From positions 30,070,001 through 30,134,000 of the forward strand of contig OX597825.1 in NCBI GenBank assembly GCA_951406725.2: 64,000 bases of DNA. The letters run 5' to 3'. Below the pieces are notes generated by a model. The model worked only from the letters and a program-made list of their open reading frames with translations. It made no database searches and was not told where the DNA came from. This document shows positions 4,665-64,000 of the stretch, one piece after another. Made by a program: the position numbers and the translations under genes. This DNA comes from Octopus vulgaris. Taxonomy: Eukaryota. How positions within the stretch are numbered: the stretch's first letter is position 1; each line of letters opens with the position of its first letter.

Positions 4665-5254
4665 TAATTGTAAAAAGTAAGTGGTTTTTTTTTTTATTAA
4701 TGTCATCGCCTCTCTCTCGTTAAGACCACATATGTTACAACACACAATTTCAAATCAAAATTCTTCCAAAACAAATATAAAATGAAAAACATTGTTAGCT
4801 TTGGTTTAGAAATAGATGCCCCAAGTTTTAATCCAGTCTGCTATTATATACATATATCCAAGAATAAGTTATTCACTAACACTTGAAACATAGTGTAGAA
4901 GTAAATATAATTTTTTTTTTATATAGCTAAAAGGTAAGATTAACAGTCTGAAATGTATTACTGTCTTATTATTTTATTTTCTTCCTCTAAACTGAGATTT
5001 GTCTGGAGTAGACATTGTATTCTATTTTTTATACATTTATTTTTTATGTTTTCTTTTCTCATTGCTTTTCTTTAAATTTTTGCTTTTTGTTATTTTATTC
5101 TGGAGAGCAGGATCAGTTCTCTTGCTCGTTCTTAGTTCTACCCGATCTGGTGAAGTTGAGAGTGTGGTAGATGAAGAAGTAATGGAAGAGACACAATTAT
5201 AGCAGGAACCATGTACATATATATGCGTAATGTGTGTGTGTGTGTGTGTGTGTA

Positions 5255-5955
5255 AGAATAGCCTGGGCAAAGTTCAGAGAGCTCTTTCCTCTGCTAGTGA
5301 TAAAGGTCCTCTCACTCAGAGTAAAAGGTAGACTGTATGACGCATGTGTACGAGCAGCCATGCTACATGGCAGTGAAACATGGGCTGTGACTGCTGAGGA
5401 CATGCATAAGCTCACAAGGAATGAAGCCAGTATGATCCGATGGATGTGTACTGTCAGTGTGCATACTCAACAGAGTGTAAGTACCTTGAGAGAAAAGTTG
5501 GATCTAAGAAGCATCAGATGTGGTGTGCAAGAGAGACGACTGTGCTGGCATAGTCATGTGGCAAGAATGGATGAGGATAGCTATGTGAAAAAGTGCCACA
5601 CCCTAACGGTTGAGGGATCCTGTGGAAGAGGTAGACCCAGGAAGACCTGGGATGAAGTGGGGAAGCATGACCTTCGAACATTAGGCCACACCGAGGCAAT
5701 GACTAGGGACCGAGACTTTTGGAAATATGGTGTGCTTGAGAAGACACGGCAAGCCAAATGAGACCATAACCACGGGGCCTATGCCAGGAGTGTAACCAGC
5801 CCACTTATGCATACCTTTCCTTCACTGGACACTAAACTCTGCTTTCAAAGACCTGTTGAGTCAAGTGAAATCGAAATCGAAATCAAATTTGATGACTGGC
5901 ATCTGTGTTAGTGGAGTGCTAAGAGCACCATCCAAGCATGAAAGTTGCCAGAGCA
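5255..5955 (+). mobile_element. RTE LINE 3' fragment (same family as the 13-16 kb copy)
   Basis: RIAWAKFRELFPLL..GRGRPRKTWDEV is nearly identical to the ORF at 13972-14481. Starts right after (TG)n. Confidence 0.92.
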
Positions 5956-11477: not shown

Positions 11478-11783
11478 CTCATGCTGGTGACAGGTTAAAA
11501 GCAGTGTCCAAAAGTGGCAGATGCCAGCGCCGCCTGTCTGGCATCCGTGTCGGTGATACGTAAAAGTACCAACCGATCATGGCCATTTGCCAGCCTCCTC
11601 TGGCCCCTGTGCCAGTGGCACGCAAAAAGCACCCACTACACTCATGGAGTGGTTGGCGTTAGGAAGGGCATCCAGCTGTAGAAACACTGCCAGATCAGAC
11701 TGGAGCCTGGTGCAGCATCCTGGCTTCCCAGACCCCAGTCGAACCATCCAACCCATGCTAGCATGGAAAACGGACGTTAAACT

Positions 11784-13819: not shown

Positions 13820-15955
13820 CTAGTCTTGCCGGGTCTTCTCACGCACAGCATACTTCCATAGGTCTCGGTCTCTAGTCATTTCCATGGTGAGACCTAACGT
13901 CCGAAGGTCGTGCTTCACCACCTCGTCCCAGGTTTTCCTGGGTCTACCTCTTCCACGGGTTCCCTCAACTGCTAGGGATTGCACTTTCTCACACACCTAT
14001 CTTCATCCATTCTCGCCACATGACCATACCAGCGCAATCGTCTCTCTTGCACACAACAACTGATGCTTCTTAGGTACAACATTTCTCTCAAGGTACTAAC
14101 GCTCTGTCGAGTAAGTACACTGACATTACACATCCATCGGAGCATACTGGCTTCGTTCCTCACGAGCTTACACATGTCCTCAGCAGTCACGGCCCATGTT
14201 TCACTGCCATGTAGCATAGCTGTTCGTACACATGCATCATACAGTCTGCCTTTTACTCTGAGCGAGAGGCCTTTAGTCACCAGCAGAGGTAGGAGCTCCC
14301 TAAACTTTGCCCAGGCTATTCTTATTCTAGCAGTTACACTTTCAGCGCACCCACCCCCACTACTGACTTGGTCACCTAGATAGCGGAAGCTATCAACTAC
14401 TTCTAGTTTTTCCCCCGGAAAGTGACAGAAGTTGTTTTCTGCAGATTTTCGGAGGTCAATGCTCCAGAGCACCTGCCACATACAAAAACTATCTTCCCAG
14501 TTAGCCTACCTTTGACATTGCTGCACCTCTTATGTGTCCATAGCTTACACTGGGTACATCTTATAGAGTTTCTACCTACACCTTTTCTACAGATCGAGCA
14601 GGGCCATCTTCCTGAGGATATTTGTGGGTTTTCTACCTTTCTACTTATTAGTACTTTGGTTTTAGCTAGGTTGACTCTAAGGCCCCTCGATTCTAAACCC
14701 TCCTTCCACACCTGGAACTTCTCCTCCAGTTCTGATAGTGACTCAGCGATTAGAGCGAGGTCGTCAGCATAGAGGAGCTCCCAGGGGCAACCTGTCTTGA
14801 ATTCCTCCGTTATTGCCTGGAGGACTATGATAAATAGGAGGGGGCTGAGTACTGAACCCTGGTGGACCCCAACCTCTACTTTGAATTCTTCTGTGTACAT
14901 GTTGCCAACTCTAACCTTACTTACGGCATCTCTGTACATGGCTTGCACAGCCCTCACCAGCCATTCATCTATCCCTAGTTTCCTCATTGACCACCAGATG
15001 AGGGATCGGGGGACCCTATCAAAGGCTTTCTCCATGTCAACGAAAGCCAGGTACAGGGGCTTATCCTTGGCTAGGTATTTCTCCTGCAGCTGCCTTACCA
15101 GGAATATAGCATCAGTGGTGCTTTTCCCTGGGACAAACCCAAACTGCATCTCATCTAAACTAACTCTCTCTCTAATTAGTTGGGCTATGACCCTCTCCGT
15201 AACCTTCATTACCTGATCCAACAGCTTGATACCTCTGTAATTATTTGTATCCAGGGCATCACCTTTACCTTTGTAGCAGTTGACTAGTATGCTGCTACAC
15301 CAGTCATTGGGTATGACTCCTTCGTGTATCACCTGGTTGACTATTCGGGTGACTAGGTTATAGCCGACACTGCCAGATATTTTGAGCATCTCTGCAGTAA
15401 TTCCTGATGGGCCTGGGGCTTTCCCTGTCTTCATGCTTCTAATTGCCTTAGCTACCACGGAACTATCAACTCAGATAGCTGGTCCCTCTGTTGGGTCAAC
15501 ATTTGGCAGACTCTCTTTATCCCATTCATTTTCTTTATTCAGCAAACTTTCATAGTGGCATCTCCAAACCTCTCTCTTCGCATCCTCATTTAGCGCAAGT
15601 GAACCATCATCCATGCGAACACACTTCTCTCCTACCACATCACGATTCTCTCTCACACACTGTCTTGCAACACGAAATACCTCAAGTCTTTCATCCTCAC
15701 GGCTCAGAACATTGGCAAATTTTTTCTTATCCGCTTCCCCTCTGGCTAAATAAACCTGTCTCCTAGCTTCCCTTTTGGCTGTCTGATACAATTCCCTGCT
15801 ACCACCATTCTTCCAGTCCTTCCAAGCCTGTCTCTTTTGTCTAATAGCCCCGTCAACCACCGTGTTCCACCACCATGTAACTCTGGGTCGAGATGGTACT
15901 TTGCTCCATCCACAGATCTGGTCAGTGGCTGTCAGCAGATTGTCCCGTAGGAATC
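13820..15955 (-). pseudogene. RTE ORF2 (RT + PHD-like finger), broken by one in-frame stop and two frameshifts
   Basis: ORFs 15471-15860 and 14403-15458 are in the same frame, separated by a TGA (likely from CGA). Frameshifts at ~14410 and ~13975. Natural stop at ~13820. Confidence 0.9.
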
Positions 15956-16470
15956 TCAGTTGTCTTCCACATTAAGTGAAGCTATATCCCCTTCTATATA
16001 TATCCCCTTCTATATATATATATATATATATATATCACAATCAAGGAACGGCCATAATAGGCCATTCACCCACTAGAAATAACAGCCAAAAGCTTTAACC
16101 GCAAAATAACATCAATTCCGTAAACCAGGAGAAAATTAAAAAACATTTACCCTGTAATTTCTTATACGATGCACCGTTTCATCTACTGTTTAATGGTAAA
16201 CTAACCTGATGTTGAACTTAAAAATGGTTTATGACTATTTAATTTTTTCCCACTAGGCCGCTGGTGGCAAAAGAATTCTACAAAATTTTTTTGCCACCCT
16301 ATATTGATTAATTATGAATTTTCTGGTTAATTCCGTAATGGAATCGGCGGCTTATATTTATTTGCTGCCGATAAATTTGGCGCGAGTGCGACGATTTGAA
16401 AATTTTAGGTCAGATATTGCCGAGGCAGCAACGGGAATGCCTCGTGAAAAATATCTGTTCCGACTTGGCT

Positions 16471-30568: not shown

Positions 30569-30873
30569 CTGTTTGTTCCTTCTCGAGCCATGCTTGGCTC
30601 ATAAGGGCTGGTTTCCCGGTTTCCTTGGTGTATAGGTTCCTCACCTGGATGGGACGCCAGGCCGTCGCAGGTGAGCTGCAAGGTGCAGGAGGAAATAGTG
30701 AGACAAAGTTGTGGTGAAAGAGTCAGCAGAAGTTCACCATTATCTTCAGCCGGAGCCATGTGGAGCATAGGTGTTTCGCTCATAAACACACACATCACCC
30801 AGTCTGAGATTCGAACCCATGATCCTTCGACCACGAGTCTGCTGCTCTAACCACTTGGCCATGTGCCTCCACC
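30569..30873 (-). mobile_element. tRNA-derived SINE family B
   Basis: tRNA-like head with A/B boxes. TSD aatccctactg at 30558-68 and 30874-84. Confidence 0.85.
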
Positions 30874-32723: not shown

Positions 32724-33275
32724 CGTCTGCATGTGTGTATTACAGTGAATGTAATAACAGAATATCCTTTTAAGTTACAGACTTTCAGTTACATATCATT
32801 GGCATATACTCAGATACAAGAATATTTCCTGTTTCTTTGAGTGCTCTGCTAAAGTTAGTACACGAAGATTATTTTACAATTGTCTCTACAAAAATATATT
32901 TTTCCATGTTATATATAACTAAGTGATTTAGTATGCACATGCAGACGTGCACGTGTGTGCATGTGCATGCACATGAATCCCAGTCTTTTTTATCAGTATG
33001 TAGCATTCCTGTATGTTGTGAGAAGCAACTAAAAAAAACTTGGTAAGAAGAGAAGCATTCTGACTATAAAACACTACCTCAAGAAAACCATCCAACACAT
33101 ACCAGTATGAGGAAAGAGAAAACAGATTAAAAATACTCCTTCCGATATTATTGCTACACACACACACACACACACATACACACACACATACACACACACA
33201 CACACGAATATATAAATCATCGTCATCATCATTAGTAGAATTTTACTAAATCGTCCCAGTATACTAAGTTGTCAG

Positions 33276-33581
33276 TGGAGGCACATAGCCTAGTGGTTAG
33301 AGCAGCGGACATCACGGTCAAGGGATCGCAGGTTCGAATCTCAGACCGAGTGATGTGTGTGTTTATGAGCAAAACATCTAAGCTTCACGCAGCTCCGGCA
33401 GAAGGTAATGGTGAACTTTTACTGACTCTTTCACCACTACTTTCTCTCATTCTTTCCTCCTGCATCTTGCAGCTCACCTGCGACGGACCGGTGTCCCATC
33501 CAGGTGGGGAACCTATATGCCAAGGAAACCAGGAAACTGGCCCTTATGAGCCAGACATGGCTTGCAAAGGAACAAACAACA
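33276..33581 (+). mobile_element. SINE family B
   Basis: tagcctagtggttag..ggttcgaatc. TSD atactaagttgtcag at 33261-75 and 33582-96. Confidence 0.88.
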
Positions 33582-33664
33582 ATACTAAGTTGTCAGAAAA
33601 TGATTACCAGTTCATTGGGGAATGTTACCAAAGATGGGTTAGTACTCTATCCCAGTGTATGCAT

Positions 33665-34233
33665 ACTGTTTATATTAGTCAGACTGCTGTCCTCATCTTG
33701 GTTGTTACTTTCACTACATTCCAAATGTTGTATGCTCCTGTCTTCTTCAGGTGTCTTGTGTTGAATTCAGTTGTTGTATTGGAATTTCAGGCCCAACTTC
33801 TTATTTGATTTCCAGGGGTACACCGATCTCAAACCGTTCTCTGCATTTCATGATTTTTTTTTCTTTGCTTCAGATAAATCATGTGAATTACGTTAGTGTC
33901 TTGCCCGGGATTTAACTCAGAACCTATAGGTAGCTGCACTGCATTAACCAATGTCTTATTCTACTAAGCAGTGCAGTCACCTACAGCCTCTGAGTTCAAT
34001 CCTTACGTAATTCGCATAATTCAACTGAAGCAAAAAAAAAAAGGGTCACAAAATACAGAGAGCGGATTGAGAGCAGTGTACCCATAGAGATCAAATACAA
34101 TGTAAAGTTCAAAATTCCAATACAGCAAATGGATTGAACACAAGACACCTGAAGATGGCTGGAGCTTACAACAGCTGAAATGTTGTGAAAGCAACAATCA
34201 AGATGAGGAGACCAATCTAATTGATATACACAG
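33665..34233. mobile_element. Older palindromic element of the same architecture (tRNA-like heads at the centre, hammerhead-like tails outward)
   Basis: Inverted arms around a centre at ~33955. Right arm reads gacac-CTGAAGA-t-ggctg..cagct-GAAA-tgtt-gtg (34144-34187) followed by caagatgagga, as in the 62-kb element. Confidence 0.6.
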
Positions 34234-50259: not shown

Positions 50260-51424
50260 GAGGTGGTATCAAAACGTTCCCAGTTATGTTCAATAGAAAA
50301 TAACTTATTTATCAAATATCTCGTTTTTGGATTTGTTTTGCAAGATTCTTTATATGAGTTTGTGTGTTGGAGCATATTCTATTGTGTATGGGGAGAGTCA
50401 TTTTCTGTTTGTGCCTTATAATGTAACACGCAAGATGCATCGAAAATTTTAGGAAAATAAAAATAAGAATTAAGGGGAAATTTTACTGGTGAGTGAGTTA
50501 CATTATAAGGCACAAAAAGAAAATTACTCTCCCCAGACACAACAAAATTATTGATCTAAGTTTTAGTGACATCTTTGAAAAAGTCACCTTGTGCAACAAT
50601 ACACCAGTCTCAGAATTTCTGCCACGTTTGGTACTTGGCCTAGAAGTCATTTTCCATAAGTGCATCAAGGAACTTCTGCGGTTCATTCTAGATCTCGACA
50701 AGTGTTAAATGGTGACCTTTGAGTTGCATTTTCACCTTAGGGAAGAGATGGAAGTCTACAGGTGCTAAATCTGGCAAACAGGGTCGGTGCAGAAGTGATA
50801 CCATGTTGTTTTAGCTGAGAAACTCATGAACGGGGAGAGCTTGGTGATAGGGTGCATTGTCTTTGTGAAGAATCCAATTCTTCATGCCCCACAGATCCAG
50901 TTCCTTTCTCTGAACGTCCTCCCTCGAACACTTCAAAACATCATTGATTGTTCTCCAACGATCCTCATGCGCTACCTGATGAATTTTGTCCATATTTCCA
51001 GGGGTGACACTCGTGGCAGGTCTTCCAAGGAGGTTCCTCTGCTTTTGTTCATCATCTTCCAGGGACATTCTTCCACTTTTGAAGTGCCTGTGACACTCAT
51101 AACATTGCTTATGACCCAATGCCTCATTGCCGTAAGTTTGCCAAAGCATGCTCAATATTTCTGTAGCAGACTTCCCAAGTTTAATGCAAAATTTCCTGTC
51201 AGCTCTTTGTTCTAACTTCCTGTCCATGACAAAAAATATCCCAGACTACAGCATACATGTGATCACAAAAACTCAAATTTCACAACTTGCTCAGTAAGCA
51301 CAGCGATGTCACTTGGTACACTGCTTCATGAAGTCCACTGGTATCTCTCATTGTGCACACAACTGTGTGCTGCCATCTGTTGGTGCACTACAGAACTAGT
51401 CCAGAAACTTTCTGATATCACCTC
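50260..51424 (-). mobile_element. Decayed mariner element with TIRs, interrupted by a foldback element
   Basis: ORF 50811-51227: EQRA..KFCIKLGKSATE..GRP..WILHKDNAPYH. Ends gaggtggtatcaaaacgttcc / gaaactttctgatatcacctc. Confidence 0.8.
50312..50545. mobile_element. Foldback/MITE-like element (same family as the 45.3 kb copy), nested in mariner
   Basis: ggggagagtcattttc..gtgccttataa / ttataaggcac..actctcccc inverted arms. Confidence 0.7.
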
Positions 51425-61353: not shown

Positions 61354-62266
61354 CTTAGTATATGTATGGACATGCAAGTTGACCACAGTCCAGTGATGAA
61401 TACAAGGAAAAGAATAAAAAATAAAAGAATGTTATTGATTTTGTTAAATGTTGTTAAAAGTGTAACACTCAAGCACACATCATGACAAGCAGAATAATAT
61501 TATTGATTCATTTTGACAAGGGAACAGGTATGGCAAAATAAAACCATAAATAAGAAACTGGTGAAGGATTATCTGTAGAAGTAGTGGTGGCAGAATCGTT
61601 AGCATGTTGGACAAAATGCTTAACAGCATTTTATCTATTAGGTTTTGTTACATCATGACAGCTGAGGGGATGCAAAAAAAAAAAAAGATGGAAAATATTG
61701 AAAAAGATTGGTCAGAAGATTGAAACTCTCAGTTGTAGCATTAGCAAAACTCTGCTTAAAACACTTTAAAACCAGCGTTAATATTGATATTATAGAAACA
61801 TTTTGAAGGACTGAAAATAGTATTAGCACAATTTATTAGATTTTGCAAGGATCATACTGCCAATAAATACATACACTGGTAGTAGTTCACTTCAGGTTTT
61901 TGTTATATTGTCAGAAATTTTCATCACACATCTGTGGCCTTTTCAATTATTTTCAATTTTCCAGATATTTGATGAAAGTTTTGTGGCAATACAATTAAAA
62001 CTGAAGTAAACCACACCCTGTGTGTGTATGCATGTTTGGAGGCAGAATGACCCTCTCAAAGTATAGCAATATTTGTTTCAACACAGAGTGTTGAATTCTT
62101 GCAAAGCAAATTGAACAACGGTGGGCAGTAGAAGCTGAGAGAAAAAGAAAAAGGTTGCAGACACATGTCATCTACTATTTTGAGAATAAACTTCCATAAA
62201 ATTTTGGAGGATTTAGGTAACTAATCACAAAATAGTTACAATATTATTTTACTTGCTTCTGCTTAT

Positions 62267-62418
62267 TATTTACGTTTGACAGATATTTGTCCTCATCTTG
62301 TTTGTTGTTAACACAACATTTCAACTGATATACCCTCCAGTCTTTATCAGGTGTCTTGGTGAAATTTCGAACTTGGGTTCACATTCCTAAGGTATTTTTC
62401 GATGTTTTTATTATTATC

Positions 62419-62480
<62 letters not shown>

Positions 62481-62640
62481 TATTCTTCAGGTCACTGCCT
62501 GGAATCGAATTTGGAATCTTGGGGTTAGTAGCCCTCGCTCTTAACCACTACGCCATATGCCGTGGCATCGTAGTTAAGAGTGCAGACTACTAACCCCAAG
62601 ACTCTGAGTTCAATTCCAGGCAGTGACCTGAATAATAAAA

Positions 62641-62706
<66 letters not shown>

Positions 62707-62929
62707 GATAATAATAATATCAACAACAATAATGATAACATCAAAAAATACCTTAGGAATTCGAACCCATGTTCAAAATTTCCCCAAGACACCTGATGAA
62801 TGTTGGAGGGTATATCAGCCGAAAAGTGCTAACAACAAACAAAATGAGGACAAATATCCGTTAAATGTAAATAATGTAAGTAATGTAAATAATGTACATA
62901 TATCCTCATCTCTTAAATATAGAACTGTA
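62267..62929. mobile_element. Head-to-head palindromic tRNA-SINE dimer with minimal hammerhead-like tails
   Basis: Arms 62265-62560 and 62562-62875 are inverted. Each has an A/B-box tRNA-like head, (AAT)n, then gacac-CTGATGA-stemII-GAAA. 14-bp direct repeat ttgcttctgcttat at 62253-62266 and 62930-62943. Confidence 0.75.
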
Positions 62930-64000
62930 TTGCTTCTGCTTATATTTGTACATGTGCTCACCTTTTATGTCTTAAACACCTCAAATGAAACTGAAGACAT
63001 ACCATATATGCTTGTAGATAAGTCACATTTCTCTGTCATACTCTAACCTTTCATCATCCAACACAAGATCACTTCCTCTAGTGCCTTTCCACTATAGCAA
63101 GACACTTGTTTCTGCCTACTCTATCTTTCCATCAAACTCTAACCTTTCATCATCTGACACAAGATCCCCTCCTCCAATTCCCCTGCATCTCTCAAAATTC
63201 CTTGTCTTGCAAATTACTTGATGACCCAGCCAGTGCTGGTGCCACGTAAAAAAGCATCCAGTCCATATTGTAAAGTGGTTGGCATTTGGAAGGGCACCCA
63301 GCTGTAAAAACCATGCCAACACTGACCTCGCATGTGCTGGTGCCACATAATAAGCACTAAGTCCACTCTGTAGAGTGTTGGTGTTAGGAAGGGCATCCAG
63401 TTGTAAAAACCCTGCCAAAACAGACACAGTAGCCTGGGGTAGTCTTCTACCTGTCAGGCTCCTGTCAGTCATGCCACCCATGCATTCATGGAAGTCAGAT
63501 ATTAAACAATGATGATGATGATGATGTTGATGATGATGATGATGATGATGCTGATGATGATGATAGTTATGAAAATCTGCATATGATTTATTTACCAAAC
63601 CATGCTCTGGGTTAGAAATTTACTGCACACACGAACACTCACATGCACTCTTCCTTGCACACCACTTACACACACACGCATGCACACACAGACAAATGAT
63701 TTTGTAAGTTGATAATGTCACTACTATATAATCCAAATATCATTGTTATGAAACATGTACACTGATGATATCATGTACAAAAACAAAAATGACTGCTTAA
63801 ACAGAAATTGAATTCTGTTACAATCATACATGTAACGATATGTGGTTTTATGAATTTATATATCCATGCTTTCCGTGTGTACAAAACATAAACTTAGTTC
63901 TCTATTGGCCAACTATAAACCTAATTCCCATTAGATGCTGCTCATACTGTCAGTCAATCTGGAATGGTGATTTAAAAGCATCGGTTGGTCTGTTTGTTCT

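What the first reader, a model, noticed from the sequence alone, without database searches (positions are those of the whole stretch)
62253..62943. Palindromic tRNA-SINE dimer with hammerhead tails inserted as one unit (14-bp TSD)
Seen: two divergently oriented Pol III-type heads meet at ~62561. Each is followed by (AAT)n and a tail whose two-arm consensus is gacac-CTGATGA-a-stemII-GAAA-(c/t)gtt-gtgtt, a minimal type I hammerhead. Both copies are mutated. One TSD frames the whole palindrome, and the right arm has a ~55-bp 3' extension. Known: inverted arrangement, 3' extension and minimal HHR are PLE hallmarks, and Schistosoma Sm-alpha is a precedent for an HHR-bearing SINE-like repeat. Inference: a SINE family mobilised by Penelope machinery rather than by a LINE.
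Basis: partly seen in the sequence, partly recalled or inferred. Interest (0 to 1): 0.8.

Follow-up and report, generated by a model that had tools for sequence, protein, structure and literature searches.

The report
Penelope-driven hammerhead SINE inserted as palindromes
Two short repeats, each with a tRNA-like start and a hammerhead-ribozyme motif, sit head-to-head between one duplicated 14-base target, and they likely belong to a large octopus repeat family copied by Penelope-like jumping genes instead of the LINE elements that normally move such repeats.

Summary
An exact 14-bp duplication frames two inverted arms, each with a tRNA-like head, an (AAT)n array and a hammerhead tail. The arms are 82% (heads) and 87% (tails) identical. 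A second, older head-to-head pair with a related tail and a different head lies at 33.6-34.2 kb. All 4 tail copies in the window are in such pairs, against 0 of 13 ordinary SINE heads (Fisher p about 0.01).

The tail drew 1,419-2,141 contigs in each of 3 of 4 public runs. Their majority letters give an intact minimal hammerhead matching the published Penelope (PLE) consensus. Named Octopus bimaculoides records carry the tail. The one-sided extension is 38 nt once two extra 9-mers are removed, the size of the PLE tail.

Best reading (0.68): a Pol III SINE likely mobilised by a PLE reverse transcriptase-endonuclease that primes on both strands. Not shown: the partner PLE (none found), Pol III transcription, self-cleavage, tRNA ancestry by a formal test, or how often head and tail are linked genome-wide. 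Ten literature searches found no such element, but Repbase and Dfam could not be checked. Schistosome Sm-alpha and animal retrozymes are close precedents.

The parts
62253..62266 (+). Left target-site duplication (14 bp; 1-2 terminal bases could equally belong to the element)
   Evidence: exact copy at 62930-62943, only two copies in the window
62267..62405 (-). Left arm tail, ending at the short 3' end
   Evidence: 87% identical to the right tail
62310..62355 (-). Left minimal type I hammerhead motif, damaged (core 62344-62350 with G8 lost; GAAA 62319-62322)
62406..62487 (-). Left (AAT)n spacer; perfect run of 18 units at 62422-62475
62488..62561 (-). Left tRNA-like head, full length; A box 62545-62555 intact, B box 62501-62510 damaged
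   Evidence: first 25 nt 84-88% like the heads of three conventional SINE copies in the window
62562..62562 (.). Single base at the 5'-to-5' junction
   Evidence: sequence
62563..62630 (+). Right tRNA-like head lacking the first 6 nt; B box 62608-62617 intact, A box damaged
62631..62737 (+). Right (AAT)n spacer; perfect run of 21 units at 62641-62703, then degenerate AAT/AAC
62738..62873 (+). Right arm tail up to the point where the left arm stops
62788..62830 (+). Right minimal hammerhead motif (core 62793-62799, GAAA 62821-62824); stem II changed at 62801 and 62803, 3 nt missing after GAAA
   Evidence: family majority letters
62874..62929 (+). One-sided 3' extension, 56 nt (38 nt plus two extra 9-nt units); PLE-type tail. 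A possible hairpin 62844-62850 with 62903-62909 spans the short end
   Evidence: depth continues to 62932 and falls to zero in the flank in three runs; hairpin folds but is not significant (z -1.4)
62930..62943 (+). Right target-site duplication
33628..33965 (-). Second locus, left arm (ends approximate): different tRNA-like head, short A-run spacer, related hammerhead tail (motif 33744-33758)
33966..34233 (+). Second locus, right arm (ends approximate): head about 20 nt shorter, B box kept, hammerhead tail (motif 34141-34155); no target duplication recovered

Best explanation
This is one insertion of two head-to-head copies of a short non-coding repeat with a tRNA-like head and a minimal hammerhead tail, likely transcribed by RNA polymerase III and likely pasted in by the reverse transcriptase-endonuclease of a Penelope-like element (PLE). 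SHOWN: the anatomy, one shared target duplication, the intact hammerhead in the family majority, a one-sided 38-nt tail, a second pair in the window, and a large family in other data sets. INFERRED: (1) Pol III starts at the head and runs on to the next T4 in the flank; none of the four arms has an internal T4, and the first one lies about 35 nt beyond each arm here. (2) The hammerhead-containing tail is the piece the PLE protein recognises. (3) The protein cuts both strands about 14 nt apart in AT-rich DNA, and each 3' end primes its own cDNA internally, one at the distal start site and one 38 nt upstream. (4) The two cDNAs run to the RNA 5' end and are joined 5'-to-5', giving the palindrome. 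The hammerhead would cleave only as a dimer and is probably not needed for insertion. Both copies here are predicted inactive.
For: Duplication p 1.7e-5. 4 of 4 tail copies lie in 2 head-to-head pairs, while 0 of 13 other SINE heads found by BLAST are paired; Fisher p 0.0095 counted by locus. At both loci the junction falls at or within about 20 nt of the head's 5' end, as expected if the RNA starts there. In runs X1, X2 and X3 (2052, 2141, 1419 contigs laid), the only listed variants in CUGANGA are the free N7 position (13, 14, 5% of depth) and U4 (0.2, 0.7, 6%). Stem II is restored at 62801 and 62803 in 97-99.6%, and loose ends behind 62824 restore CG-UU (35, 48, 30 contigs). This matches the published min-HHR consensus, including the extra base before stem II and the palindromic zero-loop helix III. 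An annotated O. bimaculoides protein reads through an intact core and stem II (P0018). All 3 opposite-strand joints of the 6 joints listed must be 5'-to-5' from their side lengths (my inference from the table), and two further joints have head-to-tail geometry (tables 5 and 5c). A long 3' end at 62927 with unrelated flanks shows in 13 contigs of X3. One X2 contig joins 17 nt of the head to the tail, and 9 X2 contigs carry an AAC/AAT array before the tail. Published PLE traits: an inverted 5'-truncated copy and a 30-40 nt tail at one end. The anole PLE protein cuts and extends both strands, prefers AT-rich DNA, starts internally at two sites that define the tail, and does not need hammerhead cleavage.
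Against: No partner PLE was found. phmmer of the tail translation gave 13 hits with no RT or GIY-YIG domain, two further searches gave one short spurious protein and nothing, and four tail motifs are absent from the Naiad, Chlamys and Hydra supplement that holds three octopus PLEs. Head-tail linkage outside the window rests on one contig, and a protein-space test for it found nothing among 4552 candidates. Only 3 inversion joints appeared among 5612 contigs laid, each in one contig; short contigs and a tail-only stretch limit this count. Summed depth falls about 5-fold toward the 5' part of the tail in X1, so many copies may be headless or carry other heads. Loose ends at 62878 mix true short ends with copies that lack the extra 9-mers. 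G12 of GAAA is changed in 5-10% of depth (CpG decay). Covariation among the four window copies is not above shuffles (80% of cells paired, 89/500). The 3' hairpin is not significant (z -1.4 and -0.4). tRNA ancestry is not shown by Rfam or by relaxed ARAGORN, whose hits equal shuffles (30 versus 16-32). The second locus has no recoverable duplication. Run X13 gave 0 contigs.
Confidence: 0.68

Rival explanations
1. The family is an ordinary non-autonomous or 5'-truncated PLE end (pseudo-LTR or retrozyme-type). The tRNA-like head is a passenger picked up by insertion or template switching in a minority of copies and is not the promoter that drives the family.
For: Summed depth is about 5-fold higher at the 3' part than at the start of the tail in X1, and head linkage is seen in only one outside contig. 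Dual min-HHRs 100-700 bp apart on opposite strands are already described for truncated PLEs in S. mansoni. Earlier AI notes report such fragments and a one-off SINE-PLE join in other genomes (unchecked). Some translated copies follow unrelated sequence with no microsatellite run (P0004, P0006).
Against: All four arms at two independent loci begin at or near a head 5' end with promoter-box remnants, with two different heads on related tails. Random truncation of a longer Pol II transcript would not stop there four times. A microsatellite precedes the tail in 9 X2 contigs and in 3 of 10 translated relatives looked up (P0003, P0007, P0013).
Confidence: 0.17
2. It is a conventional LINE-mobilised tRNA SINE whose body happens to contain a hammerhead, and the palindrome arose by twin priming or by a second copy inserting beside the first.
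For: SINEs are defined as LINE-dependent. The window is rich in SINEs and LINE remnants. A 14-bp duplication also fits LINE endonucleases; a conventional SINE at 33280 has a 15-bp one.
Against: There is no poly(A) or simple-repeat 3' end; the microsatellite is internal. Both arms are near-complete with 3' ends outward and unequal by a 38-nt tail. LINE twin priming inverts an upstream part of one RNA and does not duplicate the 3' end (own knowledge). One duplication frames both arms. 0 of 13 conventional heads are paired.
Confidence: 0.07
3. The palindrome formed once and now moves as a unit, either as a fold-back or MITE-like DNA element or by retrotransposition of a read-through RNA that holds both arms.
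For: One duplication frames the whole 663-bp palindrome, which folds at -344.5 kcal/mol with 83% of bases paired. Palindromic repeat families exist (frog Harbinger).
Against: The ends are unequal, so there is no terminal inverted repeat at the boundaries. Junction positions vary: different truncations at the two loci and three different joints. Head-to-tail joints also occur.
Confidence: 0.05

Closest known systems
Minimal hammerheads in pseudo-LTRs of endonuclease-bearing Penelope-like elements and their inverted, truncated insertions (PMC4209133, PMC8557442, PMC11167929)
   Same: Min-HHR consensus; inverted 5'-truncated partner copy; 30-40 nt tail at one end; AT-rich target; traces of partial tandems.
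   Different: No ORF. The 5' end is a tRNA-like head with A and B box remnants and a microsatellite spacer, not a truncated PLE ORF. No partner element identified.
Schistosoma Sm-alpha and Sj-alpha SINE-like retroposons (seen through PMC6765202 and PMC8490949; the primary papers were not read)
   Same: Pol III-type promoter followed by a type I hammerhead in a short non-coding repeat.
   Different: Described as tandem repeats processed to monomers by cleavage, with no PLE partner, inverted pairs or PLE tail named in the passages read. The hammerhead here is the minimal PLE type.
Animal non-LTR retrozymes (PMC7229834; bioRxiv 10.64898/2026.07.22.740005), non-autonomous Chlamys such as MRC1 (PMC8557442), short non-autonomous Penelope elements of Heliconius (PMC6685494)
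   Same: Non-coding elements proposed to use PLE proteins; type I hammerhead in retrozymes.
   Different: Retrozymes are head-to-tail arrays that yield circular RNA. None is described with a tRNA-derived Pol III head in the text read.
tRNA-derived SINEs (SINEBase definition, PMC3531059; PMC5786205), including octopus OK, OR1 and OR2 of Ohshima and Okada 1994 (seen only as a citation; two of the names recalled)
   Same: Short, interspersed, tRNA-like head, target duplication, no internal T4.
   Different: The 3' end is a hammerhead plus PLE-type tail, not a LINE tail or simple repeat, and copies are paired head-to-head. Whether this family is one of the named octopus SINEs could not be tested; OR2 is listed as a CORE SINE.

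Membership tests
SINE (SINEBase) | Short (<1 kb), non-coding unit | tested here: met
   arms of 295 and 367 nt; no Pfam domain in the short translated relatives
SINE (SINEBase) | Interspersed, at least 100 copies | tested here: inconclusive
   the tail draws 1419-2141 distinct contigs in 3 of 4 runs, which is not a copy count and does not cover the head
SINE (SINEBase) | At least 60% identity to a tRNA over at least 60 nt | tested here: inconclusive
   no tRNA library on hand; Rfam no tRNA hit; relaxed ARAGORN at chance level; A and B boxes present across the two arms
SINE (SINEBase) | [quoted passage not shown] | not testable with these tools
   only box motifs and absence of internal T4; no raw RNA reads among the listed runs
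SINE (SINEBase) | 3' tail of simple repeats | tested here: not met
   both arms end in unique sequence; the microsatellite is internal
SINE (SINEBase) | Reverse transcription by a partner LINE | tested here: inconclusive
   no match of the tail to LINE remnants in the window; no LINE library searchable
Penelope-like element insertion | Minimal type I hammerhead near the 3' end | tested here: met
   family majority matches the consensus
Penelope-like element insertion | Inverted 5'-truncated copy at the 5' end | tested here: met
   2 of 2 loci in the window; 3 opposite-strand joints
Penelope-like element insertion | 30-40 nt tail at one end only | tested here: met
   38 nt after removing two extra 9-mers; it is family sequence in three runs
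Penelope-like element insertion | Partial head-to-tail tandems (pseudo-LTRs) | tested here: inconclusive
   two joints in X1 only (table 5c)
Autonomous PLE | ORF with RT and GIY-YIG endonuclease | tested here: not met
   none in the element, and none found among the window ORFs scanned
Non-autonomous PLE derivative | 3' end homologous to a known PLE pseudo-LTR | tested here: inconclusive
   not in the Naiad, Chlamys and Hydra supplement; Penelope/Poseidon, Neptune and Nematis elements of octopus were not available
Non-LTR retrozyme | Head-to-tail array with a hammerhead in each unit | tested here: not met
   both loci are inverted pairs
Non-LTR retrozyme | Self-cleavage and circular RNA | not testable with these tools
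   contigs only
Sm-alpha-type element | Pol III promoter followed by a hammerhead | tested here: met
   arrangement only; sequence kinship not tested
Sm-alpha-type element | Tandem repeats liberated by cleavage | tested here: not met
   no tandem array at either locus

The most novel reading that the evidence does not exclude
Octopus carries at least two families of true Pol III SINEs that parasitise Penelope-like elements, a SINE class outside the LINE-dependent definition. Because the PLE protein primes on both strands, most full copies arrive as ready-made 600-700 bp palindromes, and these supply a large share of the long double-stranded RNA behind the exceptional A-to-I hyper-editing of octopus.
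Probability: 0.3. Interest if true: 0.82.

Novelty: new variant of a known kind. Interest (0 to 1): 0.62.

Why it matters
SINEs are defined as depending on LINEs. A tRNA-headed family using PLE proteins would widen that rule, and it could give Sm-alpha a mechanism. A 300-nt RNA with two fixed 3' ends would be a compact natural substrate for studying how PLEs make inverted insertions and tails, which PMC8557442 calls still undefined. Octopus has one of the two highest hyper-editing signals and an exceptionally high fraction of loci able to form long dsRNA (4.4e-3). In the same paper the frog's level is partly explained by a palindromic repeat and Penelope is heavily edited in lizard; the passages read name no such source for octopus. 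An element that inserts as a palindrome is a testable candidate. That link is my speculation. Practically, such copies would be misfiled as unclassified SINEs or as genes (P0001, P0018).

Tried and rejected
No whole genome is held for this window, so no genome-wide consensus or junction count was possible. DNA pattern scans found 0 matches: viral contigs, genome contigs (26, 78), metagenome contigs (29, 77). These collections are not animal genomes, so the blanks say nothing. Rfam gave no family at gathering score, and only sub-threshold matches, mostly microRNA hairpins reflecting the palindrome. Relaxed ARAGORN drew cloverleafs on the heads, but its hit count equals shuffled DNA, so I dropped it as evidence. 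No RNA holder listed. Partner search in protein space used three readings of the tail and head: 13 hits, 1 hit, none. P0005, P0011 and P0012 are low-complexity or repetitive matches and were set aside. The idea that the ATG in the hammerhead opens a PLE ORF, as in the anole element, was rejected because stops fall within about 26 codons in all four arms. Hydra-1_Obim was rejected as partner because its hammerhead and 3' end differ; a 14-nt match to the second locus is probably chance. A joint landing at 62826, next to the predicted cleavage site, was not used, because this copy's own deletion breaks alignments there. One search used a structure string out of register; one search is the corrected count. 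Earlier-scan look-ups by sequence and place found nothing relevant. Lunse 2017 and Albertin 2015 are not held. SINEBase supplements could not be read, one supplement file of PMC4209133 was not searched, and the preprint's supplements are closed; any of these could name this family.

Full report
OBSERVATION. The sequence at 62253-62943 is as described. A 14-mer occurs exactly twice in the window, at 62253 and 62930. The chance of such a match over 3600 registers is 1.7e-5 from local composition. Between the two copies lie a left arm on the minus strand (62267-62561), one extra base, and a right arm on the plus strand (62563-62929). Each arm reads head, (AAT)n, tail. Heads are 56/68 identical and tails 118/136. 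The right head lacks the first 6 nt. The left head keeps an A box and the right head a B box. The first 25 nt of the head are 84-88% like the heads of three conventional SINE copies in the window. tRNA ancestry is not formally shown: Rfam gives no tRNA, and relaxed ARAGORN finds 30 hits in the window against 16-32 in ten shuffles. The right arm runs 56 nt past the left arm's end; 18 of these are two extra 9-nt units, leaving 38 nt.

A SECOND LOCUS. BLAST of the tail found two more copies, at 33688-33758 (-) and 34141-34209 (+), 79-81% identical to the left tail over about 70 nt. They form a second head-to-head pair whose arms align over about 280 nt, with a different tRNA-like head and no microsatellite. 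No target duplication could be recovered there. A motif search gives exactly these 4 copies against 0.01 expected, and a profile search finds no fifth. So 4 of 4 tail copies are in inverted pairs. As a control, 13 heads of two conventional SINE families found by BLAST (4 and 9 copies) include no head-to-head pair. Counted by locus, 2/2 against 0/13 gives p = 0.0095. This is a small sample from one window.

THE FAMILY ELSEWHERE. No genome is held, and six pattern scans of non-animal collections were blank. One search listed 24 runs of 7 coded organisms, all with small shares. I laid 4 of them on the tail (62735-62975). X1, X2 and X3 gave 2052, 2141 and 1419 contigs; X13 gave 0. These are contigs, so they give neither copy number nor expression. 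In CUGANGA the only variants listed are the free N7 position (13, 14 and 5% of depth) and U4 (0.2, 0.7 and 6%). The two stem II changes of this copy are reversed in 97-99.6% of depth. Loose ends behind 62824 (35, 48, 30 contigs) supply the three bases this copy lost, so the majority reads GAAA-CG-UU followed by the 3' strand of stem I. G12 is changed in 5-10%, next to a C changed in 13-16%, the pattern of CpG decay. The majority fits the published minimal hammerhead of metazoan PLEs: a short helix I, an extra base before stem II, G10.1-C11.1, and a palindromic helix III without loop. Among the four window copies alone, 80% of cells pair but covariation is not above shuffles. Depth continues to 62932 and is zero in the flank, so the extension is family sequence. 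A long 3' end at 62927 with unrelated flanks shows in 13 contigs of X3. Loose ends at 62876-62878 mix short ends with copies lacking the extra 9-mers. Of 6 joints listed, 3 switch strand (62745/62873, 62751/62794, 62765/62882), each in one contig; their side lengths allow only 5'-to-5' geometry (my inference). Two joints in X1 have head-to-tail geometry. One X2 contig joins 17 nt of the head to the tail, and nine carry an AAC/AAT array before it. Against a simple picture, inversion joints are only 3 among 5612 contigs, and summed depth drops about 5-fold toward the start of the tail in X1.

HOST AND PARTNER. phmmer of the tail's open frame against 1.84 billion representatives gave 13 hits. The best is a 51-aa uncharacterised O. 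bimaculoides protein at 71% identity; the other nine looked up are short ORFs from unnamed contigs. Three of these ten have microsatellite-coded runs upstream. A second frame found an annotated O. bimaculoides protein whose first 25 residues read through an intact core and stem II. The family is therefore in octopus; that the window is octopus DNA is my inference. No hit has an RT or GIY-YIG domain (for the 13). The tail motifs are absent from the supplement holding Naiad_Obim, Naiad_Ovul and Hydra-1_Obim. A search for translated head-plus-tail copies found none among 4552 candidates. The partner is unknown. It would most likely be a hammerhead-bearing clade not covered there.

MECHANISM. PLE insertions often have an inverted 5'-truncated copy at the 5' end and a 30-40 nt tail at one end. 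The purified anole PLE protein cuts and extends both strands, prefers AT-rich DNA, and starts reverse transcription inside the RNA at two sites whose spacing is the tail. Its hammerhead cleaves only with protein, and cleavage is not needed for insertion. This accounts for each feature here: one staggered double cut gives one duplication, two primed cDNAs give two arms with 3' ends outward, the two start sites give the 38-nt difference, and 5'-to-5' joining gives the junction. Internal initiation would also let a Pol III transcript with a ragged 3' end give precise ends; no arm has an internal T4 and the first one lies about 35 nt beyond each arm (weak evidence). That junctions sit at the head's 5' end at both loci argues that the RNA begins there. 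The two hammerheads of a palindrome are on opposite strands and cannot form a dimer in one transcript, so any cleavage would need a second RNA or a tandem copy. A hairpin spans the short end but is not significant against shuffles. All steps in this paragraph beyond the cited anatomy are inference.

RIVALS. The main rival is a headless PLE-end family in which the head is a minority passenger (0.17). Earlier AI notes describe that outcome in other genomes; here the second locus and the junction positions argue against it, but only a genome-wide count can settle it. A LINE-driven SINE with secondary inversion (0.07) and a palindrome moving as a unit (0.05) fit worse.

COMPARISON AND NOVELTY. It works like a non-autonomous PLE and is built like a SINE. 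It fails the SINE definition on the simple-repeat tail, and it fails the retrozyme and Sm-alpha descriptions on tandem organisation. Ten full-text searches found no paper describing a tRNA-headed, PLE-mobilised SINE or hammerhead SINEs in octopus. Repbase, Dfam and most subscription papers were not searchable, so the family may already carry a name. What I read: bioRxiv 10.64898/2026.07.22.740005 parts 1-3 of 5; PMC4209133 parts 1-2 of 4 and supplement passages; PMC11167929 parts 1-2 of 4; passages only of PMC8557442 (24, 49, and supplement searches), PMC13282606, PMC7229834, PMC5786205, PMC6765202, PMC8490949, PMC8967140, PMC6962438, PMC5625713, PMC3531059, PMC4758252, PMC6685494. Ferbeyre 1998, Laha 2000, Lunse 2017 and Ohshima and Okada 1994 were seen only as citations.

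VERDICT. Real, well supported in anatomy and family consensus, mechanism inferred. New variant of a known kind. Interest 0.62.

Noticed in passing
window 33628-34233: Second head-to-head pair with a related hammerhead tail (CUGAAGA core) and a different tRNA-like head; probably an older sister family.
   Followed up: partly
window 33264-33597: Conventional tRNA SINE with a 15-bp target duplication and a short AAC tail, about 30 bp from the second locus; three more heads of this family at 30867, 48694 and 56586.
   Followed up: partly
window 13972-15971 (-): Frameshifted LINE remnant with an RT domain (RVT_1 E 2.4e-32) followed by a weak PHD/C1-like finger; a shorter piece at 5231-5761.
   Followed up: no
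window 50811-51245 (-): Mariner transposase remnant (HTH_48, E 5e-6).
   Followed up: no
P0018: An annotated O. bimaculoides gene model starts at the ATG inside the hammerhead core and leaves the repeat after 25 codons, apparently an exonised copy.
   Followed up: no
P0006: A tail copy follows a peptide that looks, by recall, like part of a LINE reverse transcriptase region; Pfam gave no match. Probably an insertion into a LINE remnant.
   Followed up: no
window about 33830-33845 (-): 14-nt exact match to the 3' UTR of Hydra-1_Obim just upstream of that element's hammerhead; flanks do not match. Probably chance.
   Followed up: partly
window 31308, 49262, 10265 (-): Further CUGANGA...GAAA spacings from a regex scan that gave 21 hits in all; none matches the family profile.
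   Followed up: partly
window 63222-63425: Repeat with internal 100-bp duplications, with relatives at 11608, 12576, 13306, 43490 and 60563.
   Followed up: no
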